In this document: positions 12,547 through 42,067 of the stretch, piece after piece
Position numbering within the stretch: position 1 is the stretch's first letter
How the letters are laid out: each line of letters opens with the position of its first letter
Virus record (IMG/VR): IMGVR_UViG_3300045988_161152
Length of the DNA: 64,000 nucleotides
Strand: one strand, 5' to 3'
DNA from: a virus
Lineage: Duplodnaviria > Heunggongvirae > Uroviricota > Caudoviricetes
Position numbers and translations under genes: made by a program
Notes under the pieces: model-generated
The model's input: only the letters and a program-made list of their open reading frames with translations
Database searches by the model: none
Told to the model about the DNA's origin: nothing

Positions 12547-12792
12547 TTGGCAGAACGTGTTGATGATGCAGAGCTGAGCATGAATCAGTTAGAAGCTCTC
12601 AAAGACATGGCCATCGATAACATCAGAAAGCAGGCACAGGTCGTGAGCCAGGTATTTACAGGGAAGTGTCGTTACTGCAATGAATCGATTGAATCAGGCA
12701 TTTATTGTGACGCTGAATGTGCGCAATGGCACAGGGAAGAGCAGGCCGCAAAACAGCGTAAATATGGCATGCGACCGGCAGGATTTGACTGA
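12547..12792 (+). CDS. Small zinc-ribbon protein (TraR/DksA-like C4 motif)
   Basis: 81 aa from a TTG start with GAGGA RBS; CRYC...CDAEC cysteine pairs. Confidence 0.45.
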   Translation: MAERVDDAELSMNQLEALKDMAIDNIRKQAQVVSQVFTGKCRYCNESIESGIYCDAECAQWHREEQAAKQRKYGMRPAGFD

Positions 12793-12794
12793 TT

Positions 12795-13373
12795 ATGTTG
12801 CGCTTTACTGAGGAAGAGTTTCAGGCTTTTAGTGAGCGTCGAAATAAGGGGCGGTCCAGGCCAAAAACCAAAAAGGATCCATTCTTATCGCTTGCGCCGG
12901 TAAAAGAAGTTTCTCCACATGCGAAGGCACTTGCAGCACTTGCAAAGAACCCAGACCTGCGCGACGGAAATTGCGAGCACTTCGAGCAGGTTTTCATTTT
13001 TGATTACTTCGAACGCAAGCACCCTGACATCTATGAGCTGTTGCATGCAACGCCTAACGGAGGGAAGCGTTCAAAAGCAACCGCCGGGAAAATGAAGGCT
13101 GAAGGGCAGAAAAAAGGTTATCCGGACATGAGTCTCGATAAAGCATGCGGTATTTATCACGGCATGCGAATTGAGCTTAAAGAACCAAATGGTAAAGCCC
13201 CGACGAAAGAGCAGATCGCCTGGATGCGCAGGCTTAGAGAGGAAGGCTACTACGTTGTTCTTGCGTATGGTGCAGAACAAGCGATTACCGCCATCCTGGA
13301 ATACATAAGTCTTAAAAAGGGTGAGGCTATTGAGCATGTATTGAACGGCGATAAGTGGTTGCATGCTGCTTAA
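12795..13373 (+). CDS. VRR-NUC family PD-(D/E)xK nuclease-like protein
   Basis: 192 aa; GYPDMSLDKACGIYHGMRIELK (PD...ExK) followed by a Q..W...L...G block. Confidence 0.5.
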   Translation: MLRFTEEEFQAFSERRNKGRSRPKTKKDPFLSLAPVKEVSPHAKALAALAKNPDLRDGNCEHFEQVFIFDYFERKHPDIYELLHATPNGGKRSKATAGKMKAEGQKKGYPDMSLDKACGIYHGMRIELKEPNGKAPTKEQIAWMRRLREEGYYVVLAYGAEQAITAILEYISLKKGEAIEHVLNGDKWLHAA

Positions 13374-13439
13374 AATAATAAATTAATTAGTGCATGTACG
13401 CTCTTTGTGGTAGTGCACTTTAACATCGGGAGAATAATC

Positions 13440-13595
13440 GTGTCATCCAAGGTTAATTATGAGTCGCTGGCATCGGTCATGCCGCGTAATGAACAGGAAA
13501 CAGATGCTGTAGTGGACCCTGTAATCGCTGAAATGAATGCTCGCCTGGAGGCTGAATTTGCAGCTGAGAATGAACATACCACCCAGGGCGACTAG
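13440..13595 (+). CDS. Small acidic hypothetical protein
   Basis: 51 aa from a GTG start with GGGAGA RBS; ORF track gives 13407-13595; overlaps the next gene start. Confidence 0.3.
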   Translation: MSSKVNYESLASVMPRNEQETDAVVDPVIAEMNARLEAEFAAENEHTTQGD

Positions 13596-14199
13596 GACTG
13601 TTTTTTGTGTCGGTAGCGGTCCGTCACTCACTCGTGAGGACTGTGCTGCTATAGAAAAAACTGGCTGTTCAATCATCGCGGTTAACAATTCCTGGCAGAT
13701 GTTCGATGACATTTATGCCTTATACGCCGGTGATTTGTCATGGTGGAAGCAATACGGATCCACCATACCGGGAGGGAGATTCCGCAAAGTGACAGCCAAC
13801 CTGGCGGCGGCGAAATCATTTTCGTTGGAGTACAGGCGATATTGTGGACCGGCGGAAGGGGTAAATAGCGGCGCGCAGGCTATCAGTCTGGCTGCTGAAT
13901 CAGGGGCTGAAGTAGTGGTATTAGTCGGCTATGACTGTTCTCTGCAAAACGGCCTTCATTGGCATGGCGCGCACCCTCAAGCACTACGGAATCCAACGCA
14001 GGTGTCTATTTCAAAATGGCAACAGCAGTTCCTGGATACCCGCAAAAAACACGCAGATTTACATATTTTGAATGCAAGTAGGAGCAGTGCAATTCAATGT
14101 TTCCCAAGAATAAATTTAGAGGCAGTGATCGCGTTATTATCGTCGGCAGTGGCCCAAGCGCCGCAAACTTTGTTGCGCCGCGCGGAGTGCCGATTATAG
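13570..14199 (+). CDS. GxGPS-motif Rossmann-like protein, paralogue 1 (DUF115/GT42-like by motif)
   Basis: VFCVGSGPSL...IIAVNN...VVLVGYD; start set at ATG 13570 so the GSGPS motif sits at the same distance from the N-terminus as in paralogue 2. Confidence 0.5.
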   Translation: MNIPPRATRTVFCVGSGPSLTREDCAAIEKTGCSIIAVNNSWQMFDDIYALYAGDLSWWKQYGSTIPGGRFRKVTANLAAAKSFSLEYRRYCGPAEGVNSGAQAISLAAESGAEVVVLVGYDCSLQNGLHWHGAHPQALRNPTQVSISKWQQQFLDTRKKHADLHILNASRSSAIQCFPRINLEAVIALLSSAVAQAPQTLLRRAECRL

Positions 14200-14723
14200 C
14201 GGTCAATGGGGCCATCGACTGGCTTAACCGCGCTTCTTATTTTTTCACCCTTGATCCATCCCCAGACAATATGCGGCGCGTTGGTCGTGGCCGCCGTCGC
14301 CGTGGTGTTTGTTATTGCATGGCACTACCCGATGTTAAAGAACGTGAAGTCAGAGATGGCGTTCTGTGCTTCCGTCGTGTGGCTGAACGCGGCATGGAGC
14401 CAAAAAATACGAATTCTCCCGAGTGGTGGGCGTGGCGCTGGTCCGCACATTTCGGCCTTTGCGAAGATGAGAATGAAATTGCCAGCGGCAATAGTGCATA
14501 TGGTGCTCTGAACCTGGCTTTCCATATCGGATTCAAACATGTAGCTCTGGTGGGCGTTGACGCTACGCAAGAACTACGCGTTCACTCCGGCGGCACGCCA
14601 AAAAATCTAAGTCACCTGCCTTTGTTATTCCAGTCTGCGCGTGAACAGATTGACGTTGTTTCATGCGGGAAAATGGGAGGTATTCCGCAGATGACTCTTA
14701 AAGAATGGCTGAAGAATACATGA
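14097..14723 (+). CDS. GxGPS-motif Rossmann-like protein, paralogue 2
   Basis: 208 aa; [10 protein letters not shown]...IIAVNG...VALVGVD; overlaps paralogue 1 by 103 nt in another frame. Confidence 0.5.
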
Positions 14724-15397
14724 TGGCACCCACAATTTATCACCGTATCGACGGTACCAAATACAGGAATGTCTGGGTTGTTGGTGATCTGCATGGTTGC
14801 TACACCAGACTGATGTCCGAACTCCATCGTGTGGATTTTGACCCGGCGCAGGATTTACTGATATCGGTCGGCGACCTTATCGATCGCGGTACTGAAAATG
14901 TCGAATGTCTGGAACTATTGCAGATGCCCTGGTTCAGGGCAGTGATGGGGAACCATGAGCGGCTGATGATTGATGCGTTAAGTCCAGATGGCAACGTGAA
15001 TAACTGGCTAATGAATGGCGGACAATGGTTCTTCATGCTGGACACTGATCAGGAAATATTAGCCTGGGCGCTGGTGGAGCTGGTAAAGCGTCTGCCCTAT
15101 ATCATTGAGCTGAACACCGGGCAAGAAACTATCGTTATAGCCCATGCCGACTATCCGGATAATGAATACCAATTCGGTAAGGAGGTACCGCTTTTCAACG
15201 TTGTCTGGGCGCGCGAGCGTATCAGTGATTCGATGGATGATATTGGTGGCGAAATTTCGGGCGCAGATCGTTTTATCTTTGGCCACACTCCGGTGAAAAG
15301 CCCGAAGACATTCTGGAATCAGCAGTATATCGACACTGGTGCCGTATTTTGCGGAAACCTGACATTGATGAAAGTGAAAGGTGATGGTGCAGCATGA
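14705..15397 (+). CDS. ppp: Ser/Thr protein phosphatase (lambda-PP family metallophosphatase)
   Basis: GDLHG, GDLIDRG and GNHE metallophosphatase motifs; N-terminus resembles lambda PP; true start may be ATG 14723. Confidence 0.8.
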
Positions 15398-16095
15398 AGA
15401 TTGCTTTAGTTTTTCGCTCTGGTGGTGACTATAACGCTTCCGATGTGCAGTGGCTGGTTAATCAACTGCCAAAAGGCTATGAAATTATTTGCCTGACAGA
15501 CCTGAAGCGTTTACATGTACCTGGCGTCAAAGTTGTCCCATTGATCAACCAGTGGCAAAAGTGCCGTGGCTGGTGGGCGAAAATCGAGTTGTTCCGACCG
15601 GATATAACCGATGATCTGTTCTATCTGGATTTGGACACGGTTATTGCCGGTGATATACGCCCAATCCTAGAGCATCCACCAACCAGCTTCACCATGCTTA
15701 GGGATTTTTACCATCCACAATATCGTGGCAGCGGTGCCCTGTGGATACCAAATAGTGTTAAAGCGCATATCTGGAGTTCATTCTGGCAAGATCCGGAAGG
15801 TTGGATTTCTCGTTGTGTCACTACTGAGTGCTGGGGTGACCAGGGGTTCTTACGAAAGGTTATGGGCGATGATACACCAGCATTTCAGGATCTGTATCCA
15901 GGATGGTTTGTAAGTTACAAGGCCGATGTTGTGGAACCTGGTTCAAAATATGCGAGCGCGCGTTACTCCAGGGGGAATGGGGCATTACCAAAAGACTGCC
16001 GAATAATCTTTTTCCACGGCAAACCGCGACCTCGCGAAGTGTCAGAGGATTGGCTTCCCCTTATCAGCTCATTTTTTGAGCGAGAATCAGAATAA
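15394..16095 (+). CDS. Glycosyltransferase-like protein (GT-A type, DxD motif)
   Basis: 233 aa; [12 protein letters not shown] DxD signature; ATG overlaps ppp stop (ATGA). Confidence 0.45.
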
Positions 16096-16096
16096 T

Positions 16097-16113
16097 ATTG
16101 CTCTAATAATTCC
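16097..16113. promoter_or_regulatory. C1 operator
   Basis: ATTGCTCTAATAATTCC (14 of 17 consensus positions) starting 2 nt after the stop codon at 16093-16095. Confidence 0.5.
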
Positions 16114-16120
16114 ATATTTT

Positions 16121-16151
16121 TAAAACGTGATGTACACTCATCACGTTTTTT
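16121..16151. terminator. Bidirectional rho-independent terminator
   Basis: AAAACGTGATG-TACACT-CATCACGTTTTTT: 8-bp stem flanked by an A-run and a T-run. Confidence 0.55.
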
Positions 16152-16162
16152 ATTAGAGCAAT
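16146..16162. promoter_or_regulatory. C1 operator (inverted orientation)
   Basis: TTTTTTATTAGAGCAAT is the reverse complement of ATTGCTCTAATAAAAAA. Confidence 0.5.
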
Positions 16163-16176
16163 CTACAAGGTGCACT

Positions 16177-16395
16177 ATGTGGCCATTCCGACGGAAATAT
16201 CACTACTGGCTGATCGCCTTTGTTACGCCGACCGGCGGTATCAGGCATGTCATCACCAGGTATCGCAACAAGAGACTCACCTTAGCCAGAATTTTACAGG
16301 CTGCCATAGGTGAGGGACTGGATACAAATTGCGTAGTCCTTCCTCCTTCATACTTAGGAAAAATGACCGAAGCACAAGCTAATACGGAACTTTGA
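16177..16395 (+). CDS. Hypothetical small protein, first gene of a C1-controlled operon
   Basis: 72-aa ORF just after the operator; its stop abuts the next start. Confidence 0.4.
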   Translation: MWPFRRKYHYWLIAFVTPTGGIRHVITRYRNKRLTLARILQAAIGEGLDTNCVVLPPSYLGKMTEAQANTEL

Positions 16396-17731: not shown

Positions 17732-18238
17732 TTGAGTATTTTCAATAAACACGCACACCAGGAACGTCCGTACATCGTCATAGTAGATATTGATGGGACG
17801 ATATCAGAGGCAACGGAAGACAGGCTGCATTTACTTCCACCACCTGGCAAAGGTGCATTAACAGAGCACTGGAACGAGTTTAACCTTGCCTGTGACACTG
17901 ATGCTCCCATCACTCCAGTTATTGATATGGTGCGCCAGTTGTCCGGCATTTACACCCTCTGGTTTGTAACCGGGCGCTGTGAGATAGCCAGGGATAAAAC
18001 ACGAGCCTGGTTGCGTAAGCACGTAACAAATGGGGCTGAGCCTTTGCTATCTATGCGTCCTGCCACCGATGACAGAAATGACGGTCCAGCAAAGATTGAT
18101 CTCCTTAAGAAAATTGGTCTAAGTAAAATTGCGTTCGCGCTGGAAGATAAGATTGAAGTGGCGCGTGTATTCAGGAGGCACGGCGTGCTTACGTTAATGG
18201 TCAGGGAGTATGAAAACGCGCTTCTCCATCAACAATAA
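17732..18238 (+). CDS. pap: HAD-superfamily phosphatase (class B acid phosphatase-like)
   Basis: 168 aa from a TTG start with GGAGG RBS; HAD motif I VDIDGT; symbol from recalled P1 gene order. Confidence 0.55.
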   Translation: MSIFNKHAHQERPYIVIVDIDGTISEATEDRLHLLPPPGKGALTEHWNEFNLACDTDAPITPVIDMVRQLSGIYTLWFVTGRCEIARDKTRAWLRKHVTNGAEPLLSMRPATDDRNDGPAKIDLLKKIGLSKIAFALEDKIEVARVFRRHGVLTLMVREYENALLHQQ

Positions 18239-18254
18239 TTGCTCTAATAAATAT
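18238..18254. promoter_or_regulatory. C1 operator
   Basis: ATTGCTCTAATAAATAT (16 of 17 consensus positions) directly after the pap stop. Confidence 0.55.
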
Positions 18255-33119: not shown

Positions 33120-33358
33120 AATTATGCCTCACTGTATTGACAACACAGAGCCTGAAGCTCTGACCTACTGTTTCACCCATGATCCATGCTGGGGTAATCT
33201 AACAACATTGCGCTGTGTGTAAGATGAGCAATGCATAGCTGTAATGCCGTTGTATAAGGTTTCCCTGTTTGCTCATTTCCTTCTGAGCCGCTCTACAACG
33301 CTGAAGACACATTAAATAGTGAATCCAAAGTCGTATTACGAAACGGCGGCAAAACTAT

Positions 33359-33374
33359 AATTTATTAGAGCAAT
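33359..33374. promoter_or_regulatory. C1 operator
   Basis: AATTTATTAGAGCAAT, perfect reverse complement of ATTGCTCTAATAAATT. Confidence 0.65.
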
Positions 33375-35593: not shown

Positions 35594-36154
35594 ATGAAAA
35601 CAATCGAACAAAAAATTGAACAGTGCCGCAAGTGGCAGAAGGCAGCCAGAGAACGAGCGATCGCTCGGCAACGGGAGAAGTTGGCTGATCCGGTCTGGCG
35701 AGAATCTCAATATCAGAAAATGCGGGATACTCTCGACCGCCGTATCGCTAAACAGAAAGAGCGCCCACCAGCCAGCAAAACGCGGAAAAGCGCGGTAAAA
35801 ATAAAATCTCGTGGCTTGAAGGGGAGAACACCAACGGCGGAGGAACGGCGCATCGCCAATGCTCTTGGCGCTCTCCCCTGCATTGCCTGCTATATGCATG
35901 GAGTAATATCTAATGAGGTGTCTCTGCACCATATCGCCGGTCGTACCGCGCCGGGTTGTCATAAAAAGCAATTGCCACTTTGTAGATGGCACCACCAGCA
36001 TGCAGCTCCGGCTGAAGTAAGAGAAAAATACCCATGGCTGGTCCCTGTTCATGCCGATGGTGTGGTTGGAGGCAAGAAAGAATTCACCTTGCTGAACAAG
36101 TCAGAGATGGAGTTACTGGCTGACGCCTATGAGATGGCAAACATCATGCACTAA
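35594..36154 (+). CDS. ref: Recombination enhancement function Ref (HNH endonuclease)
   Basis: 186 aa from ATG 35594; cysteine/histidine-rich C-terminal half consistent with an HNH fold; the longer track ORF would span operator and terminator. Confidence 0.8.
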   Translation: MKTIEQKIEQCRKWQKAARERAIARQREKLADPVWRESQYQKMRDTLDRRIAKQKERPPASKTRKSAVKIKSRGLKGRTPTAEERRIANALGALPCIACYMHGVISNEVSLHHIAGRTAPGCHKKQLPLCRWHHQHAAPAEVREKYPWLVPVHADGVVGGKKEFTLLNKSEMELLADAYEMANIMH

Positions 36155-36343
36155 TAAATATATTATTTTTAATGATAAATGATTGACAACTGACAAGTGA
36201 CTTCAGTCAGAATCATCACACGCCCGGTACGGATGGATCCCTTTTCAAATATTCCATGGACGGCACAGTCTGAGTACCGGGCGCTACCTTCAGTTGTATT
36301 GCTAAGCCGCCGCTGGTGGCTTTTCTTTTTTGTAGGGGGCGCT

Positions 36344-36985
36344 ATGGATAAGAAAATATGCGTTGTTTCGATGAGCGTCGGCAAACCGGCGTCAATGACT
36401 GCTGCATGGATCAATAACGAGCTGATAATGGCTGAGCGGACCAGCTACCCTGAACGCCGCCGCGATATGGAACTCCAGCTGCTGCGCGAATTGCGAGAAA
36501 AAGAGGAAAAGGGTTTTATCGTGCTGGTGGAAGAGGAAAACAGCTTTATTACTGGACGAGTTGGCCAGCGTGTAAGGTTGCGTGATCCCTTCATGAACGG
36601 TAGACCGGTACTGATTGAAGCAATGCAGATTTACAAGGAATTAGAACGCCAGAAAGCGATCAAGTTACCGCGCAAGGAATCCGGCAAATACATCCTCCAC
36701 CAAAGCATCTTCGATTCCGAACATGACAAAAAAGGCGATGAATTTTTCAACATCAACTGGAGCGAAATAACGACAGAGCACGTTCTGACGTTGTTATGCT
36801 GCTTCGCAACGGAATACAACAACGTTGCAAACTCCGACTACATCAGGGCAATGGCTGGAGAAGTTGAGCCACGCCAGGAACCATCGTTACTAAGCCCACT
36901 GATTAACATAATTCGCGGCACACAGAGACTTGCGGAAAAAAGCGTTCCACATGGAATCTTAACTGGAAAGGGAAACTATTTTTAA
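36344..36985 (+). CDS. mat: Hypothetical protein in the P1 mat position
   Basis: 213 aa from ATG 36344 with AGGGGG RBS; symbol from recalled P1 order. Confidence 0.5.
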   Translation: MDKKICVVSMSVGKPASMTAAWINNELIMAERTSYPERRRDMELQLLRELREKEEKGFIVLVEEENSFITGRVGQRVRLRDPFMNGRPVLIEAMQIYKELERQKAIKLPRKESGKYILHQSIFDSEHDKKGDEFFNINWSEITTEHVLTLLCCFATEYNNVANSDYIRAMAGEVEPRQEPSLLSPLINIIRGTQRLAEKSVPHGILTGKGNYF

Positions 36986-37026
36986 CGACCTGAGCGCCAC
37001 TTCTTTCAGGTCGTGTTGGATGTCAT

Positions 37027-37051
37027 AAAAAGGAGGTTTTCACCTCCTTTT
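37027..37051. terminator. Bidirectional terminator between mat and res
   Basis: AAAAAGGAGG-TTTTCA-CCTCCTTTT. Confidence 0.55.
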
Positions 37052-37060
37052 AAACTGGAA

Positions 37061-39973
37061 TTATGGTAATGCGCTCTTGATTAACTGATAAATATCATCA
37101 TTAGCAAACTGCGTTTTGAATTCAACTTTAACAGACTGACTTATTTGATTGAAAAGCGCCTGGGCATGTTCAATTTTCTTTTTTTCTTCAAGCCGTAAAC
37201 TATCCTTACTATCTACGTTTTTTGTTTCAATGATAAAGTTAAGATAATCACCTTCTGCTGTTTTTACAACATAAGCAAAATCGGGTGAGTAAGTGTATCC
37301 ACCAGCTACCGGGATCTTAATAGAATTCTTCGGTATCTTTGAAAAAACAACAACAGACTGGATCTCTCTATCTGTTATATTACGCCTTTCAAGCTCTGAA
37401 TCATAAAAAACTTCTTCAAAAAGATAAGTATCTAATGGTGCTTTTGAATTATCCTGTAATACACCAAGATCACTTGATAATACCTCGTCTAGAGGCTTAC
37501 CATCAGCATTTGTGAACTTTGTGGGATGAATTGAACCCGAAATCAAATTATATCCGAGGCTGAATTTATTAAACGAATTGTTCAACAAATACTTACTAAA
37601 ACCAGATTTAATTTTTCTGATTGTTTGAATATTCAGGTATTCAGTGATATTAATAGTGTCTTTTATATCACAAAAAACTTTATGTAAAGTATCGTGTTTA
37701 ACAAAAATAGTCTGTGATAAGTTATCGAGAAACTCTCGATAACTCATTGTGTTTAGCTTAGCAAAGTCATCGTCATCACTAACAATGCTTTTCGACATTG
37801 CCATATCATTGTGGATGTAAATTTTATCAATGCGAGTATGAACGCCTGATTTGGTAAATCGTTCTGTTTCTTCGAGCATGAATGACTTGAAAATGGATAA
37901 AAACTCATTTTCACTGTTTATTTTGTACTCAATCACCGCTTTTTGATTGATTAATTCCCATAGTTCTTTCAGCTCACTGAACTTACCAACACGCATTTTA
38001 GTGCGTCTTTTTCCATCAGTAGCTTTTTTGATTTTACCTGGTTTCACTCCTATAGGGAATGCTGCTGGATATTTGGATTTTAAGCGGCTGTAGGCATCTG
38101 AATCTTTGAAATTATCATTGTCATCAATGATTTCATCATTGAAAAGTTCATTCATTAGTGCTCTGGATGAAAGCTCAGGATACTGAGCCCTGATTTGTTC
38201 CTTAAGCTCTTGAGTAAACTTACTTGGAACCCTTTCTTTGAAAGAACTCTCATTGACCTCTTTAACAAGTGAGTCAACAAAATCCTTTTCTGTAAAATCG
38301 ACATAATATTTAAGGGTAAAATTGCGGTCTTTCACTCGACACATGTATTCATTCACAGGAAGACGCAAACCGCGCCCTACCTCTTGAAGCTTGGATGTGG
38401 TACTACCGCTCGAACGGAGCTTACAGATCTGAAAGACATTAGGATTATCCCATCCCTCACGCAACGTCCATTTGGAGAAAATGAAACGACGTGGATTATC
38501 TAAAGACAGCAAAAGCTCTTTGTCATGAAGGATTTCGTTGATTTCCTTCTCGATTTTATCATCCTTATCACTGTTATCTTTTGAAAAATAACCGCCATGA
38601 ACGGAAGATATATCTTTAACTGTTTTTTCAAGATAGTTACTATAAAACTCATCTTTTTCTATTTTTAACAGTTCATTAGCTTCTGCCAAAACATATTCTT
38701 CGAACTTAGCTTTCAAACTTCCGGCAATATTATTACCGTCACGATAACCTTCAATATCATCAATAAAGAAAAGAGTAAGAGGCTTTATGCGTGGCCTTTG
38801 TGTCAGAAACTCTTTTTCTAACTTAAAGTGTTCTTTGATAGCTTTCCTCATCATGCTGTCAGCAAGTGTCTGATCGTAAGAATAGGGGTTTATTGAGCAA
38901 CCAATTTTTAGCTCAATACCATTACTCAACACTACTGTATTCTTGCCTAAGGCATCAAGAGTTAAATCGTGAATAGCACTATGTGTCTTAGATAGAGATT
39001 CACCTTTTGTTAACTTAAATAAAGTTTTCTTGTTATTTTCATTTAGCTCAAATGTAACTTCTTCCCCATCAGATTTAATGAACTTTAGGTTGGCGTCACC
39101 ATCACCAACAATATCCTCAATGTACGCATCAATACCTTTAACAAGGTCTTCATTAAATGCATCCACAGCTGTAAGTCGATAAACTAAATTCTTATAGCCT
39201 TCACTAAAGGTCGCACCGTAGCGGATAATATATTGAGCATTAAACTTCTCTATATTTTCCCATGTCTTTTTACCAGTAGGAAATTTATGTGGTTCATCAA
39301 TGATAATGAATGGTTTTACCGCACCAAGAGCTGAAAAGGGAGAATCAAAATGATTGTCAAGCAAGCCAACATCATAAGTGGAATTTAAATTCTTAGAGTG
39401 AATCATTCCCGTGTTAATAACAAGAACGTGTATATATTTCTTATTGAAATTACTAGCTTCAACAAAATCATGTATAGCTTGAGGCATATACGATTTTGTG
39501 CTTTTACCGGCATTTTTCTGACTTTCAACAACGTAAGTCTTTATTTCACGCTCATAATCATCTCTAAAGTGTTCTTTTAACGCATCGCTTTTCAAAAAGT
39601 TCACTGTTCCAGCTTTGATCGATAGAGTAGGAACAATAATGATAAACTTATTAATGCCAAATGATTTGTTCAGATCAAAAATTGTTTTAGTGTAGGTATA
39701 CGTTTTACCTGTACCTGTCTCCATAGAAACATCAATTACGTTGCTTCTAGCATCGTAATTATTTTTTACATGTTCAATACCATTGAGTTCCTGAACTTTT
39801 TTTATATTTTTATAGTATTGCTGTTCAGTAAGCCGTAATTCTGGATTAACTAACAGGCGAATAGAAACATTATCCTCCTGATGAGATGTCGCGGAAACAA
39901 AAACGTTCATCACCGCATCGACACCTGCTTTCTGATGCGGTAAGTTCTTTTCGAATGTGAACCCTTTTGACAT
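37061..39973 (-). CDS. res: Type III restriction enzyme Res subunit (SF2 helicase/endonuclease)
   Basis: 970 aa; helicase motifs (GTGKTYT, DEPH); AT-rich; immediately downstream of mod. Confidence 0.9.
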   Translation of the reverse strand: MSKGFTFEKNLPHQKAGVDAVMNVFVSATSHQEDNVSIRLLVNPELRLTEQQYYKNIKKVQELNGIEHVKNNYDARSNVIDVSMETGTGKTYTYTKTIFDLNKSFGINKFIIIVPTLSIKAGTVNFLKSDALKEHFRDDYEREIKTYVVESQKNAGKSTKSYMPQAIHDFVEASNFNKKYIHVLVINTGMIHSKNLNSTYDVGLLDNHFDSPFSALGAVKPFIIIDEPHKFPTGKKTWENIEKFNAQYIIRYGATFSEGYKNLVYRLTAVDAFNEDLVKGIDAYIEDIVGDGDANLKFIKSDGEEVTFELNENNKKTLFKLTKGESLSKTHSAIHDLTLDALGKNTVVLSNGIELKIGCSINPYSYDQTLADSMMRKAIKEHFKLEKEFLTQRPRIKPLTLFFIDDIEGYRDGNNIAGSLKAKFEEYVLAEANELLKIEKDEFYSNYLEKTVKDISSVHGGYFSKDNSDKDDKIEKEINEILHDKELLLSLDNPRRFIFSKWTLREGWDNPNVFQICKLRSSGSTTSKLQEVGRGLRLPVNEYMCRVKDRNFTLKYYVDFTEKDFVDSLVKEVNESSFKERVPSKFTQELKEQIRAQYPELSSRALMNELFNDEIIDDNDNFKDSDAYSRLKSKYPAAFPIGVKPGKIKKATDGKRRTKMRVGKFSELKELWELINQKAVIEYKINSENEFLSIFKSFMLEETERFTKSGVHTRIDKIYIHNDMAMSKSIVSDDDDFAKLNTMSYREFLDNLSQTIFVKHDTLHKVFCDIKDTINITEYLNIQTIRKIKSGFSKYLLNNSFNKFSLGYNLISGSIHPTKFTNADGKPLDEVLSSDLGVLQDNSKAPLDTYLFEEVFYDSELERRNITDREIQSVVVFSKIPKNSIKIPVAGGYTYSPDFAYVVKTAEGDYLNFIIETKNVDSKDSLRLEEKKKIEHAQALFNQISQSVKVEFKTQFANDDIYQLIKSALP

Positions 39974-39975
39974 GA

Positions 39976-41916
39976 TTAGTTCCTTACCACTAAATCTAAC
40001 TCAATAGATTTTTTGTTAGCATAACTTTTTAGCGCCTCATTAAGCTCCCTTTGTTTTGCACTTTCAAAGTTACAACCATAAAACACGACTTTGTTTGGGG
40101 CAAAATCTTCATCTGAATCCAGCTTTTGGAGCAACGCTTTCAATGCTTCGCTAGTAAAATTAGGTGCAATCAAATACAGACGGCCATTGCAAAAGTGTGC
40201 TGTATAGCCACTAAGATCAACATCTTCAATAGGTGTTGTTAACAAGCTACCATCATATACACACCATGTAGTCAATAGGGCATCATACTGTTCAGGCGTT
40301 AATACCGCATCATCAAAGAATGTATGATTAGTGAGCGTAAGTTCAGACTCAACTTTTGCTCTAAAGTCATCAATAGTATGAATCACTTTGAAACCTATTT
40401 TAGCCGCATTATCACTTGTGGTTGTGCTTTTTTTAAATACCTCCTGTATCCTTTTTTTTGTTATTTCAAAAATAGATCTATAGCCAAGAGAATAGGCATT
40501 CTTTGTTTTATTTATAACTTCATCTTTTTGTATGCATATAAAATTCCTACAGCCTGAATCTTTTTCATTTAAATATGCAACAGCTTCTGCTGTCGTACCA
40601 GAGCCAGCAAAAAAGTCAAGAACTAATGAATCCTTTTTTGTTCCTATTTTTACAAGATCGGTTATAAGAGGAACAGGTTTTGGTCCTTCAAATAATTTTG
40701 CACCTAAAAGATTTTTAAGCTCAGTTGTCGCCGTGCTTGTACTATATTCAGGTTTATACCAAATTGATTTTGGCTTTTTAGTTGGTAGCTCTCCAAGAGC
40801 AGGCCGCTGTTTTTTATAGATATTTTTACCATCTTTTATATCTATTACTATTAGATTATAAAACTCATCATTTATTTTTTTCTTTCCCCACGACCATGAA
40901 AGCTCTTCACCCGTAGGGCTTACTGGGTAAAGTACATAGTCATCTTCGTTAAGAGGTTTATCATCATCTGTTACATAAACCTTATTTTCTGAATTGATGA
41001 ATACCGGAAACCAACCTTTTGGTCTTGATTTTCTAGAAGCATCTTGGCCAGTACGCTTTAATGTATCAGCTCTTTTAAATAGCCCATATTCATCTTCATC
41101 CCACTCTTTTTCAACTTCACTTTCATCAATATCGAATTGCCCCAAACTACAAACATCTTTGTTTTTAGCGTATACATATATATATTCATGCGTATCTGAA
41201 AAGCCAAAGTTATCATGATTGCCTTTGAGATTCATGATTGTAGGGAGTTTTGCAACAAAATTACCTTGCCCAAATACTTCGTCGCATAATAATCCCAACT
41301 GTTTATCTTCGTTATCGTCTATGGAGATGAATATTACTCCATCCTCTTTTAAAAGTTCACGTGCAATATAAAGACGAGGATAAATGAATGTCAGCCATGC
41401 ACTATGACTGCTTGAACCCTTGGTGGTAAATTCAAGTATGCGGTTAGCCTCATCAAGCTCGATACCTGCCAGTTCAGAAAGCTGTTCTGGTGTAAACTTG
41501 CGATCATCGTTATAGACGAATCCATCTTTACCCGTATTGTATGGTGGGTCAATGTAAATCATATTCACCTTTTCAGCATAAGCATTAACCATATGCTTCA
41601 ATACTTCGAGGTTATCCCCTTTGATTAACAGGTTTTGACTGTTCTTGTTCTCTTCTTGTTGGTTATGTGTTTTATCTTCTGCCAACAACGTTTTCGGTGG
41701 TAGATTGGCCAACAAACGGGCATAAGATTTACCCAGCCAGTTTAAACTGTATGATTCTTTAGAGAGTTCAACCTCCGATGCTCTAATAATCTCAAGCAAT
41801 TTTTCTTGAATGAAGGCTCCGTTTTTATCAAAACACTGTGGGAAATTAGCTTTCAACACAGCCAGTTGCTTGCTGTTAGCCGTTTCTACTTCGGAAAAAA
41901 TCGTTTCTTTTTTCAT
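39976..41916 (-). CDS. mod: Type III N6-adenine DNA methyltransferase Mod subunit
   Basis: DPPY catalytic motif and FFAGSGTT SAM motif; start set at MKKETIF (646 aa) from recalled Mod length; track ORF extends to 41937. Confidence 0.85.
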   Translation of the reverse strand: MKKETIFSEVETANSKQLAVLKANFPQCFDKNGAFIQEKLLEIIRASEVELSKESYSLNWLGKSYARLLANLPPKTLLAEDKTHNQQEENKNSQNLLIKGDNLEVLKHMVNAYAEKVNMIYIDPPYNTGKDGFVYNDDRKFTPEQLSELAGIELDEANRILEFTTKGSSSHSAWLTFIYPRLYIARELLKEDGVIFISIDDNEDKQLGLLCDEVFGQGNFVAKLPTIMNLKGNHDNFGFSDTHEYIYVYAKNKDVCSLGQFDIDESEVEKEWDEDEYGLFKRADTLKRTGQDASRKSRPKGWFPVFINSENKVYVTDDDKPLNEDDYVLYPVSPTGEELSWSWGKKKINDEFYNLIVIDIKDGKNIYKKQRPALGELPTKKPKSIWYKPEYSTSTATTELKNLLGAKLFEGPKPVPLITDLVKIGTKKDSLVLDFFAGSGTTAEAVAYLNEKDSGCRNFICIQKDEVINKTKNAYSLGYRSIFEITKKRIQEVFKKSTTTSDNAAKIGFKVIHTIDDFRAKVESELTLTNHTFFDDAVLTPEQYDALLTTWCVYDGSLLTTPIEDVDLSGYTAHFCNGRLYLIAPNFTSEALKALLQKLDSDEDFAPNKVVFYGCNFESAKQRELNEALKSYANKKSIELDLVVRN

Positions 41917-42067
41917 ATCCATTTTAAACCAGATCATTTAGCAACAAAGCGCCGCCTCCCCAGCCCGTTAGAGCCAGAAGTTGTGGCACTATCACTATCT
42001 ATATGTTTGAAGAATCGTGCTTCTTTGAGCGATGCTCGGTGAGCAAACAGCCATAATTTGGGGAAGT

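What the first reader, a model, noticed from the sequence alone, without database searches (positions are those of the whole stretch)
13570..16095. Candidate glycosylation/modification module: overprinted GxGPS paralogue pair, Ppp phosphatase and DxD glycosyltransferase
Two paralogous Rossmann-type proteins (VFCVGSGPSL...IIAVNN...VVLVGYD and [10 protein letters not shown]...IIAVNG...VALVGVD) resemble the N-terminal signature of DUF115/Maf and GT42 sialyltransferase-like enzymes. Their genes overlap by 103 nt in different frames, so paralogue 2's catalytic-motif region is read in a second frame as paralogue 1's tail. They are followed, with coupled start/stop codons, by a lambda-PP-type Ser/Thr phosphatase and a 233-aa protein with a DxD motif (FYLDLD). 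The whole unit is closed by an operator-terminator-operator sandwich. The grouping suggests a coordinated modification pathway whose substrate is not evident.
Basis: inference. Interest (0 to 1): 0.6.

Follow-up and report, generated by a model that had tools for sequence, protein, structure and literature searches.

The report
Phage P1 three-enzyme glycosylation cassette
This stretch is the known but uncharacterised pmgN-pmgO-pmgP-ppp-pmgQ operon of a P1-like phage; three of its genes form a sugar-transferase trio that recurs next to the capsid gene in many phages of Gram-negative bacteria, so it probably adds sugars to a phage-particle protein, though this has not been tested.

Summary
The window is a P1-like phage (99.4% identical to P1), and 13570-16095 is the repressor-controlled operon pmgO-pmgP-ppp-pmgQ, with pmgN upstream.

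- **The overlap:** the two genes overlap by 103 nt. A distant prophage has a 94-nt overlap, so it is not a sequencing frameshift. The overprinted PmgO tail is not conserved.
- **PmgQ** is a GT8-like glycosyltransferase with an invariant DxD motif.
- **Ppp** is a lambda-type protein phosphatase.

What changes is the grouping. The conserved unit is O+P+Q. Ppp occurs only in P1-like genomes, and phage D6 has ppp without O, P or Q, so it is a passenger. The trio is found fused into single proteins and mixed with sugar methyltransferases and other transferases. In 17 of 30 diverse viral contigs it lies just after the major capsid gene. In one chromosome it is interspersed with adhesin genes.

Best reading: a lytic-cycle glycan-assembly module, probably acting on a virion-associated protein and probably drawing on host CMP-Kdo and a UDP-hexose. 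The acceptor and donors are inferred. The genes are dispensable for plaque formation, and public annotation already calls them transferases.

The parts
13341..13367 (+). Predicted sigma-70 promoter PpmgN (-35 TTGAAC, -10 CATGCT)
   Evidence: Position transferred from the P1 annotation (P1 coordinate minus 66055). Sequence read.
13380..13396 (-). C1 repressor operator Oppp (formerly Op83), which controls the operon
   Evidence: P1 annotation. The sequence has 4 mismatches to the operator consensus, so the 3-mismatch scan did not find it.
13440..13595 (+). pmgN: small acidic protein of 51 aa, function unknown
   Evidence: P1 annotation. PHROG 2350, E 1e-37. A similar acidic small ORF precedes the O gene in the Pantoea P1-like locus L092.
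13570..14199 (+). pmgO: minimal Maf/sialyltransferase-fold transferase, about 200 aa (P1 annotates the start at 13537)
14097..14199 (+). 103-nt pmgO/pmgP overlap; the PmgP N-terminus including SGPS is read in another frame as the non-conserved PmgO tail
   Evidence: A 94-nt overlap in the Citrobacter rodentium prophage. Variable overlap length elsewhere. The PmgO tail is not conserved.
14097..14723 (+). pmgP: distant paralogue of pmgO with the same fold family
   Evidence: hhalign of A1 against A2: 97.8% probability, E 9.5e-13.. Sub-threshold PF01973 hits covering profile positions 22-166 in homologues.
14705..15397 (+). ppp: lambda-PP-type Ser/Thr protein phosphatase; lineage-specific passenger (likely start at 14720 or 14723)
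   Evidence: PDB 1g5b, E 1.5e-94. Pfam Metallophos 59.3 bits. Beside the trio only in P1-like loci. Alone in phage D6.
15394..16095 (+). pmgQ: GT8-like GT-A glycosyltransferase with invariant D79-x-D81 and an FHGxPRP motif
   Evidence: Alignment A3. Profile against PDB sequences: 6mw5 E 1.9e-6. AlphaFold pLDDT 94.6. Foldseek hits to 6mw5, glycogenin, LgtC and GlyE, E 1e-9 to 1e-7.
16097..16162 (.). Inverted C1 operators OpmgRa (16097-16113, +) and OpmgRb (16146-16162, -) flanking a hairpin plus T-run; this closes the operon and controls pmgR
   Evidence: RNA fold -26.9 kcal/mol, z = -8.1.

Best explanation
This is the P1 operon pmgN-pmgO-pmgP-ppp-pmgQ. The phage repressor C1 keeps it off in the lysogen, so it is expressed during lytic growth.

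**The unit.** PmgO, PmgP and PmgQ form a conserved three-enzyme glycan-assembly cassette. PmgO and PmgP are two paralogous minimal enzymes of about 200 aa with the Maf/sialyltransferase-like fold. PmgQ is a GT8-like, DxD-dependent hexosyltransferase. The three genes are translationally coupled, which explains the overlaps. The 103-nt pmgO/pmgP overlap is an enlarged version of an ancestral short overlap. Ppp is an unrelated lambda-type protein phosphatase that was inserted into the cassette in the P1 lineage.

**Proposed mechanism (inferred).** In the cytoplasm of the infected cell the three enzymes build a short glycan on an acceptor. PmgO and PmgP would add 2-keto-3-deoxy acid sugars from a CMP-activated donor. 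In E. coli K-12 the only such donor I know of is CMP-Kdo. PmgQ would add an alpha-linked hexose from a UDP-sugar.

**Acceptor (inferred).** The most likely acceptor is a phage-particle protein, head-associated in most relatives, rather than DNA.

**Shown versus inferred.** Gene identity, paralogy, fold families, co-occurrence, domain fusions and synteny are shown here. Enzyme activity, donors and the acceptor are inferred.
For: **Identity and regulation**
- The region is 99.4% identical to P1, with annotated C1 operators on both sides.

**Fold families**
- PmgP is homologous to PmgO.
- PmgQ is GT8-like, with invariant DLD and FHGxPRP motifs.

**One pathway**
- O, P and Q co-occur in most of the 18 species-level genome loci and in many of the 52 diverse viral contigs.
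- Single polypeptides join a Q domain to an O- or P-like domain in both orders. One joins it to a PF01973 domain that passes Pfam's threshold at 72.5 bits.

**Glycan chemistry**
- Q domains are fused to sugar O-methyltransferase domains of the CmcI and TylF types.
- Of 40 genes intercalated in the clusters, 12 are SAM methyltransferases and 5 are FkbM type. The rest include 2 KpsS/KpsC-type capsule-synthesis proteins, 2 GT8, 1 GT29, 1 GT2 and 1 sulfotransferase.

**Acceptor**
- In 30 viral contigs the nearest upstream gene of at least 300 aa, within three genes, is a major capsid protein in 17, Mu-F head protein in 4 and portal in 3.
- The same position is seen in a Pseudomonas prophage, phage D3, and Zhongshania and Gilvimarinus prophages.
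- In Pseudescherichia chromosomes the three genes are interspersed with giant Big_1/invasin adhesin genes.
- The closest solved relatives of both folds include protein glycosyltransferases: Maf, glycogenin, Skp1 GalT and GlyE.

**Donor**
- Maf enzymes expressed in E. coli BL21 O-glycosylate Ser/Thr with Kdo taken from endogenous CMP-Kdo (bioRxiv 10.1101/2020.06.03.131540).
- No nonulosonic-acid synthesis genes accompany the cassette.
- All loci with a named organism come from LPS-bearing phyla.

**Precedent**
- Mycobacteriophage capsid glycosylation by phage-encoded transferases (cited in PMC11256854).
Against: - There is no experimental evidence of glycans on P1 particles. The virion proteomics paper (PMC9024508) and a P1 head cryo-EM paper (PMC12810830) do not mention any.
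- pmgO, pmgP, ppp and pmgQ are dispensable for plaque formation, and their deletion gives no anti-restriction phenotype.
- In P1 the operon is not in the head-gene cluster. It has a C1-controlled sigma-70 promoter rather than a dedicated late promoter.
- PmgO and PmgP fail Pfam's gathering threshold for PF01973 (23 and 21 bits against 34.6). They show no significant sequence similarity to Cst-II.
- GT8 and GT42 enzymes also act on LPS, so an envelope acceptor is not excluded.
- Synteny is guilt by association.
Confidence: 0.5

Rival explanations
1. The trio remodels the host envelope rather than phage proteins. During lytic growth it would add Kdo or hexose to the LPS core, which is the P1 receptor, or to another surface glycan. 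This would block superinfection or stop progeny from re-adsorbing to debris.
For: - GT8 includes the LPS-core enzymes WaaO, WaaJ and LgtC, and LgtC is among the structural hits.
- GT42 enzymes sialylate lipo-oligosaccharide.
- The PmgP N-terminus weakly hits the WaaZ Kdo-III transferase model (E 0.1). WaaZ aligns at the NSA..G.D motif, at only 17% probability.
- All loci with a named organism are from LPS-bearing bacteria.
- In the Citrobacter rodentium prophage the trio lies between the lysis genes and terminase, a position I take, from background knowledge, to be typical of accessory genes.
Against: - C1 represses the operon in the P1 lysogen, so it cannot act as classical lysogenic conversion.
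- The dominant position immediately after capsid genes, and the adhesin-island context, point to protein acceptors.
- The WaaZ and WaaO comparisons are not significant.
- None of the three proteins gave any Pfam match to a membrane-protein family. Transmembrane segments were not predicted directly.
Confidence: 0.25
2. PmgO and PmgP are not glycosyltransferases. They would be ATP-dependent pyrophosphokinases or kinases of the MptE/thiamine-pyrophosphokinase type, activating or phosphorylating a small molecule or sugar that PmgQ then uses.
For: - The only Pfam relationship is to the family named after MptE.
- PmgO and PmgP are single-domain proteins of about 200 aa, like MptE (216 aa) and unlike Maf (about 630 aa).
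Against: - The N-terminal GxGPS(L) motif and the NSG..G.D motif line up with those of Cst-II at motif level.
- The consistent partners are transferases and sugar-modifying enzymes, including GT29 and KpsS/KpsC-type genes in the same clusters.
Confidence: 0.1
3. All four enzymes, Ppp included, form one coordinated pathway. The phosphatase would process a phosphorylated intermediate or regulate the transferases.
For: In P1, ppp is co-transcribed with both neighbours and its start and stop are coupled to them. The arrangement is conserved among P1-like genomes, including the Pantoea one with 72% PmgP identity.
Against: - Ppp lies beside the trio only in P1-like genomes. Most other trio loci place O, P and Q adjacent or separated only by methyltransferase or transferase genes.
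- Phage D6 has a ppp 89% identical in DNA sequence, sitting among lambdoid early genes without O, P or Q.
- Ppp matches lambda phosphatase over its full length (E 1.5e-94; P1's annotation gives 64% identity). Lambda phosphatase is a protein phosphatase from a phage whose ninI gene, to my knowledge, has no such transferases beside it.
Confidence: 0.07
4. The overlap is an artefact or a recoding site. Either a sequencing frameshift splits one ORF, or a programmed -1 frameshift makes an O-P fusion protein.
For: pmgP lies in the -1 frame relative to pmgO. A canonical slippery heptamer, A_AAT_TTA, sits at 14112-14118 in the pmgO frame inside the overlap. Natural fusions of related domains exist.
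Against: - The same sequence occurs in about 100 independent P1-like records.
- Each protein covers its whole family profile, and the two are paralogues, not halves of one protein.
- The heptamer is absent from the long overlaps of the Citrobacter rodentium and Chimaeribacter loci. Its chance expectation, by my estimate, is about 8% per overlap.
- No downstream stimulatory structure was found.
Confidence: 0.03

Closest known systems
Maf (motility-associated factor) flagellin O-glycosyltransferases, Pfam PF01973 / DUF115 (structure 5mu5)
   Different: PmgO and PmgP are about 200 aa and consist of the core domain only, without the flanking domains of Maf (the solved chain is 632 residues). No flagellin gene or nonulosonic-acid synthesis genes lie nearby. 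The scores fall below Pfam's threshold. They always come as a paralogue pair together with a GT8-like enzyme.
GT42 sialyltransferases Cst-I and Cst-II of Campylobacter jejuni
   Different: There is no significant sequence similarity (hhalign probability below 8%). The position of a catalytic histidine is unresolved. To my knowledge the K-12 host has no CMP-sialic acid. The public label therefore over-specifies the function.
GT8 retaining glycosyltransferases (glycogenin, Skp1 alpha-GalT 6mw5, LgtC, GlyE; E. coli WaaO/WaaJ)
   Same: PmgQ has the GT-A fold, an invariant DxD motif and a C-terminal H-G-x-P-x-P motif resembling HxxGxxKPW.
   Different: P1 PmgQ has no Pfam PF01501 hit. It is shorter (233 aa), and the histidine-to-proline spacing differs by two residues. 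It belongs to a large family of its own, with 5459 clusters at 50% identity.
Virion glycosylation in mycobacteriophages (Che8 and relatives; Freeman et al. 2023, cited in PMC11256854)
   Same: Phage-encoded transferases build glycans on capsid proteins using host sugar donors. They are dispensable for growth in the laboratory.
   Different: The hosts are different (diderm, LPS-bearing). The enzymes here are a Maf-like pair plus a GT8-like protein; which families the mycobacteriophage enzymes belong to could not be checked, because that paper is not in the library. In most relatives the cassette lies right after the capsid gene. For P1 and its relatives no glycan has been demonstrated.
Bacteriophage lambda Ser/Thr protein phosphatase (NinI, PDB 1g5b)
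   Same: Ppp aligns over its full length at E 1.5e-94 and carries the GDxHG, GDxxDRG and GNHE motifs.
   Different: In P1 it is embedded in the transferase cassette rather than in a nin region. This embedding is specific to the P1 lineage.

Membership tests
Pfam PF01973 MptE-like / Maf_flag10 (DUF115) | Score at or above Pfam's gathering threshold (34.6 bits) | tested here: not met
   PmgO 23.1 bits and PmgP 20.9 bits. Ten homologues score 25-31 bits.
Pfam PF01973 MptE-like / Maf_flag10 (DUF115) | Modified GT-A/Rossmann fold of the Maf central domain | tested here: met
Maf flagellin glycosyltransferases | Multi-domain protein of about 600 aa with flanking domains, encoded next to flagellin and nonulosonic-acid synthesis genes | tested here: not met
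   PmgO and PmgP are single-domain proteins of 208-220 aa. The neighbours are phage genes.
Maf flagellin glycosyltransferases | Catalytic acidic residues plus a serine (E324 and D415 in M. magneticum Maf; D257, D272 and S334 in C. botulinum Maf) | tested here: inconclusive
   Invariant D55, S100 and D122 in the PmgO family and D53, S133 and D155 in the PmgP family. No residue-level superposition was available.
CAZy GT42 (Cst-I/Cst-II) | Significant sequence similarity to GT42 members | tested here: not met
   hhalign of A1 and A2 against the Cst-II sequence: probabilities 7.8% and 5.3%. No PDB sequence hits with the profiles.
CAZy GT42 (Cst-I/Cst-II) | N-terminal GxGPS motif and the general-base histidine (H188 in Cst-II; the residue number is from memory) | tested here: inconclusive
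   GSGPS is present in both proteins. Invariant H130 and H132 in PmgO and H173 in PmgP, but their equivalence to H188 is not established.
CAZy GT8 | Pfam PF01501 match | tested here: not met
   PmgQ has no Pfam hit at E up to 1. The Q domain of one relative hits PF01501 at E 0.0013, below threshold.
CAZy GT8 | GT-A fold close to solved GT8 structures | tested here: met
   Foldseek: 6mw5 E 1.7e-9; glycogenin, LgtC and GlyE at 1e-8 to 1e-7; probability 1.0; TM-score about 0.57. Profile against PDB sequences: 6mw5 E 1.9e-6 and 5gvv E 0.002.
CAZy GT8 | DxD metal and nucleotide-sugar motif plus a C-terminal histidine ligand (HxxGxxKPW) | tested here: met
   D79, L80 and D81 are invariant, and H208, G209, P211 and P213 are invariant, across 34 sequences. 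The histidine spacing differs by 2 residues from 6mw5, so its role as a metal ligand is inferred.
Lambda-PP / PPP-family protein phosphatases | Metallophosphoesterase motifs and full-length similarity to lambda PP | tested here: met
   GDLHG, GDLIDRG and GNHE are read directly from the translation. Pfam Metallophos 59.3 bits against a threshold of 21.5. PDB 1g5b E 1.5e-94 over residues 11-229.
Phage virion glycosylation systems | A glycan covalently attached to a virion protein and dependent on the phage transferases | not testable with these tools
   Only association is available. A capsid gene lies immediately upstream in 17 of 30 viral contigs. The P1 virion papers searched do not mention glycans.
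Known anti-phage defence systems (PADLOC) | Match to any defence-system protein model | tested here: not met
   No hits for any of the five proteins.

The most novel reading that the evidence does not exclude
Many tailed phages of LPS-bearing bacteria, P1 included, may decorate a head or other virion protein with a short, often methylated, O-linked glycan that contains Kdo. In some bacteria the target would be giant Ig-domain adhesins. The glycan would be built from the host's own CMP-Kdo pool by a pair of minimal Maf-like transferases plus a GT8-like enzyme. This would be a widespread and so far unrecognised virion glycosylation system in Gram-negative phages, and the first natural Ser/Thr-O-Kdo protein modification.
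Probability: 0.2. Interest if true: 0.75.

Novelty: new variant of a known kind. Interest (0 to 1): 0.45.

Why it matters
P1 is among the most used phages in genetics, yet this operon has only a placeholder name ('putative morphogenetic function'). Its automatic label, 'alpha-2,3-sialyltransferase', is probably wrong in detail.

If the trio glycosylates virion proteins, phage-particle glycosylation would extend from mycobacteriophages to phages of Proteobacteria, Bacteroidota and other diderm bacteria. That bears on immune recognition of therapeutic phages, on particle stability and on host range.

The enzymes are small and soluble and probably use donors that E. coli already makes, which would make them attractive for glyco-engineering. 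The comparative result also yields a direct experiment: mass spectrometry of wild-type against deletion virions.

If the acceptor is LPS instead, the cassette would be a lytic-cycle receptor-masking device for a phage whose receptor is the LPS core.

Tried and rejected
- **Sequencing frameshift or single fused ORF:** rejected. About 100 independent records carry the same sequence, both proteins span their full profiles, and the overlap is conserved in a distant relative.
- **Programmed -1 frameshift:** rejected. The heptamer A_AAT_TTA at 14112 is not conserved in other long overlaps.
- **WaaZ-type Kdo-III transferase membership for PmgP:** only a weak N-terminal hit (E 0.1) and a motif-level hhalign match (17% probability). 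I keep it as a lead, not a result.
- **Direct sequence link to GT42 Cst-II:** not significant.
- **PDB sequence searches with PmgO or PmgP, single sequences or profiles:** no meaningful hits.
- **Anti-phage defence role:** no PADLOC hits.
- **DNA glycosylation:** not tested here. I consider it unlikely because, from general knowledge, P1 DNA is not known to be hypermodified; the cluster context (capsid genes, adhesins) also points elsewhere.
- **First viral-contig scan:** returned only P1 copies. I repeated it with an alignment headed by a distant member.
- **AFDB50 fold library:** not available.
- **Papers not held in the library:** Lobocka 2004 (P1 genome) and Freeman 2023 (virion glycosylation).
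- **Literature search for phage, DUF115 and glycosyltransferase together:** nothing found.
Full report
**1. What the region is**

The window is a P1-like phage. Bases 13400-16300 are 99.4% identical to phage P1 (NC_005856, 79455-82355). They are at least 97.9% identical to 19 P1/P7-type records. The P1 annotation names the genes as follows:
- pmgN: 13440-13595
- pmgP: 14097-14723
- ppp: 14705-15397
- pmgQ: 15394-16095

Upstream lie a predicted sigma-70 promoter and the C1 repressor operator Oppp (Op83). Downstream lie the inverted operators OpmgRa and OpmgRb, which flank the promoter of pmgR. P1 calls these genes 'putative morphogenetic function'. P7 calls them hdmA-D, 'head morphogenesis'. 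Neither label rests on an experiment described in those records.

**2. Check of the observation**

The ORFs, motifs and coordinates are as described.
- The pmgO/pmgP overlap is 103 nt. The SGPS codons of PmgP lie inside it.
- The pmgP stop lies within ATGATG at 14720-14725. The ppp stop and pmgQ start form ATGA.
- The downstream element consists of two inverted 17-mers, each matching the C1-operator consensus with three mismatches, around an 8-bp hairpin with a T-run. The whole palindrome folds at -26.9 kcal/mol, z = -8.1.

Single-sequence BLASTP between PmgO and PmgP is weak (E 0.004). Alignments of 84 and 80 homologues match each other at 97.8% probability, E 9.5e-13, over 156 columns. The two are therefore true but distant paralogues.

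**3. The overlap**

It is not a sequencing error.
- The sequence recurs in about 100 independent records.
- Each protein covers essentially its whole family profile.
- A lambdoid prophage of Citrobacter rodentium, whose O-like protein is only 41% identical, has a 94-nt overlap. The conserved SGPS motif of its P-like gene again lies upstream of the O stop codon.

However, the overlap length varies. It is 49 and 40 nt in Pantoea and Chimaeribacter P1-like genomes, and 7-16 nt or none in Pseudomonas, Zhongshania, Brevundimonas and Commensalibacter loci. The PmgO residues encoded in the overlap lie beyond the conserved end of the family and differ between lineages.

In 7 of 8 loci the P gene is in the -1 frame, as expected if an ancestral ATGA-type junction was enlarged. 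A slippery heptamer, A_AAT_TTA, at 14112 is not conserved. The overlap is best read as translational coupling with an incidental overprinted tail.

**4. What the proteins are**

*PmgO and PmgP.* Both give only sub-threshold hits to Pfam PF01973 (MptE-like/DUF115): 23.1 and 20.9 bits against a threshold of 34.6. Their homologues score 25-31 bits.

Many uncharacterised phage proteins share the fold. The Cst-II sequence, which I recalled and then verified against PDB entry 1ro7, aligns only locally, at the (T/N)SG...G.D motif, and without significance. The fold-family claim therefore holds. Membership of GT42, or of PF01973 by its own threshold, does not.

*PmgQ.* It has no Pfam hit.
- Its family profile matches the GT8-type Skp1 alpha-galactosyltransferase 6mw5 (E 1.9e-6) and a GT8 enzyme, 5gvv.
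- Its model (pLDDT 94.6) matches 6mw5, glycogenin, LgtC, GlyE and WbbM at E 1e-9 to 1e-7.
- D79-L80-D81 and H208-G209-x-P211-x-P213 are invariant.

*Ppp.* It is a full-length lambda phosphatase homologue (E 1.5e-94).

**5. What belongs together**

I scanned one genome per species and took a diverse set of viral contigs. I then searched them with profiles of the three families.
- O, P and Q co-occur widely: in Enterobacterales, Pseudomonas, Zhongshania, Commensalibacter, Brevundimonas, a Bacteroidota genome and many uncultured phages. A few loci show only two of the three: a Methylophilaceae contig with P and Q, and a Longimicrobiales contig with Q and a P-like gene.
- Ppp accompanies them only in P1-like genomes. 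Phage D6 carries ppp without them.
- The PmgQ family is large, with 5459 clusters at 50% identity.
- Some of its members are fusions with an O-like or P-like domain, in both orders. One is fused to a PF01973 domain that passes threshold at 72.5 bits. Others are fused to sugar O-methyltransferase domains of the CmcI and TylF types.
- Of 40 genes intercalated in the clusters, 12 are SAM methyltransferases and 5 are FkbM type. The rest include 2 KpsS/KpsC-type capsule-synthesis proteins, 2 GT8, 1 GT29, 1 GT2 and 1 sulfotransferase.

Together this is good evidence that O, P and Q act in one glycan-building pathway. It argues against a pyrophosphokinase role for O and P.

**6. Where the cassette sits**

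- In 30 viral contigs that have a gene of at least 300 aa within three genes upstream, that gene is a major capsid protein in 17, a Mu-F head protein in 4 and a portal in 3.
- The typical order is terminase, portal, protease, capsid, one or two small genes, then O-P-(methyltransferase)-Q, then head-tail connectors and the tape measure. The gene roles here are inferred from gene sizes plus the Pfam checks.
- The same order holds in a Pseudomonas prophage, and in Zhongshania and Gilvimarinus prophages.
- Phage D3 retains a truncated O-like gene, orf7, right after its capsid gene.
- In the Citrobacter rodentium prophage the trio lies between the lysis genes and terminase.
- In Pseudescherichia chromosomes the three genes are interspersed with giant intimin/invasin-type Big_1 adhesin genes, outside any phage.

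**7. Mechanism proposed**

*Shown:* identity, paralogy, folds, co-occurrence, fusions and synteny.

*Inferred:* PmgO and PmgP transfer a CMP-activated keto-deoxy acid sugar, and PmgQ transfers an alpha-hexose from a UDP-sugar.
- To my knowledge the only CMP-activated sugar of this class in E. coli K-12 is CMP-Kdo.
- Maf enzymes have been shown to use CMP-Kdo in E. coli to make Ser/Thr-O-Kdo (bioRxiv 10.1101/2020.06.03.131540).
- No nonulosonic-acid synthesis genes accompany the cassette.
- Every locus with a named organism comes from an LPS-bearing phylum.

The acceptor is most likely a virion-associated protein, given the capsid-adjacent position, the adhesin context, and the protein-directed nature of the closest solved enzymes. 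The LPS core remains a serious rival, because it is the P1 receptor and GT8 and GT42 enzymes act on LPS.

**8. Evidence against, and limits**

- The four genes are non-essential for plaque formation (PMC10695390). Their deletion gives no plating or anti-restriction phenotype (PMC9024508).
- None of their products is in the P1 virion proteome. This is expected for enzymes.
- Neither that paper nor a P1 head cryo-EM study mentions glycans. This is absence of evidence only.
- In P1 the operon is not in the head cluster, and its own promoter is C1-controlled.
- No residue-level superposition on Maf or Cst-II was possible, so the catalytic residues are only candidates.

**9. Novelty and verdict**

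The genes, the operators and the phosphatase are known. The transferase labels already exist in automatic annotation.

What is added here:
- separation of a conserved O-P-Q trio from the passenger Ppp
- the fusion and cluster evidence for a single glycan pathway
- the systematic placement after capsid genes in phages of diderm bacteria
- the CMP-Kdo donor argument

I rate this a new variant of a known kind (phage-encoded glycosylation) and of moderate interest. Its value depends on a simple mass-spectrometry experiment.

Noticed in passing
L111 (phage D3) 5691-5978; L109 9166-9555; L121 421-705; L153 5037-5312; L154 6247-6498; L126 5258-5599; L114 4357-4656: A small protein family (PHROG 7993, D3 orf6.5 type) is encoded between the capsid gene and the O-like gene. 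It has a domain of about 50 aa, then a tail rich in Ser, Thr, Pro, Ala and Gln (for example SSASPAGQ..TANESGSG), and ends in RGRP or KRGRKP-type basic motifs that resemble AT-hooks. It could be the glycosylation substrate or a DNA-binding head protein.
   Followed up: partly
L114 3983-4360; L133 1127-1516; L145 163-543; L149 5810-6187: A second recurrent small protein of about 125 aa, with 22-26% Ser+Thr, is encoded directly after the capsid gene and before the cassette. It looks like a head-decoration protein and is another candidate acceptor.
   Followed up: no
L108 (Pseudescherichia chromosome) 2241-15359; also L094-L098: A non-phage island in which the O-, P- and Q-like genes are interspersed with four Big_1/invasin-type genes, one of them a 1166-aa inverse autotransporter. 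The arrangement is conserved in five species-level genomes.
   Followed up: partly
L111 (phage D3) 5951-6409; L109 9609-10013: The O-like genes of D3 (orf7) and of the Gilvimarinus prophage lack the N-terminal SGPS region. They may be truncated or degenerate copies. D3 also lacks P and Q. It does have an orf12 (PHROG 6804) plus methyltransferase pair, also seen in L007.
   Followed up: partly
window 14112-14118: A canonical -1 slippery heptamer, A_AAT_TTA, lies in the pmgO reading frame inside the pmgO/pmgP overlap. It is not conserved in other long overlaps, so it is probably chance.
   Followed up: yes
window 13440-13595 (pmgN): CRISPRi knock-down of pmgN reduced plating about 70-fold, yet deletion studies call it non-essential and the downstream genes are dispensable (PMC10695390). 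The discrepancy is unexplained. PmgN is a 51-aa acidic protein whose gene overlaps pmgO.
   Followed up: no
L004-L006 (Pantoea chromosome) 8001-8633: A stand-alone PmgQ-like gene sits between lpdA and acnB in a Pantoea chromosome, with no O- or P-like gene in the 8 kb held on either side. The GT8-like enzyme can therefore exist outside the trio.
   Followed up: no
window 36001-42000: A block of low G+C content (0.36-0.40, against about 0.49 elsewhere). By position relative to P1 it may be the res/mod restriction-modification region. This was not checked.
   Followed up: no
window, 14 sites (for example 2414-2430, 12473-12489, 18238-18254, 33358-33374): Fourteen matches to the C1 operator consensus with up to 3 mismatches, against 0.24 expected by chance. 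This is consistent with the dispersed C1 regulon of P1.
   Followed up: partly
L101 8636-9184; L008 7254-7835; L103 5911-6525: Extra small putative transferases accompany the trio in some phages: one Nucleotid_trans-like, one 193-aa protein with a DVD motif, and one PHROG 854 'glucosyltransferase'. This suggests lineage-specific elaboration of the glycan.
   Followed up: partly
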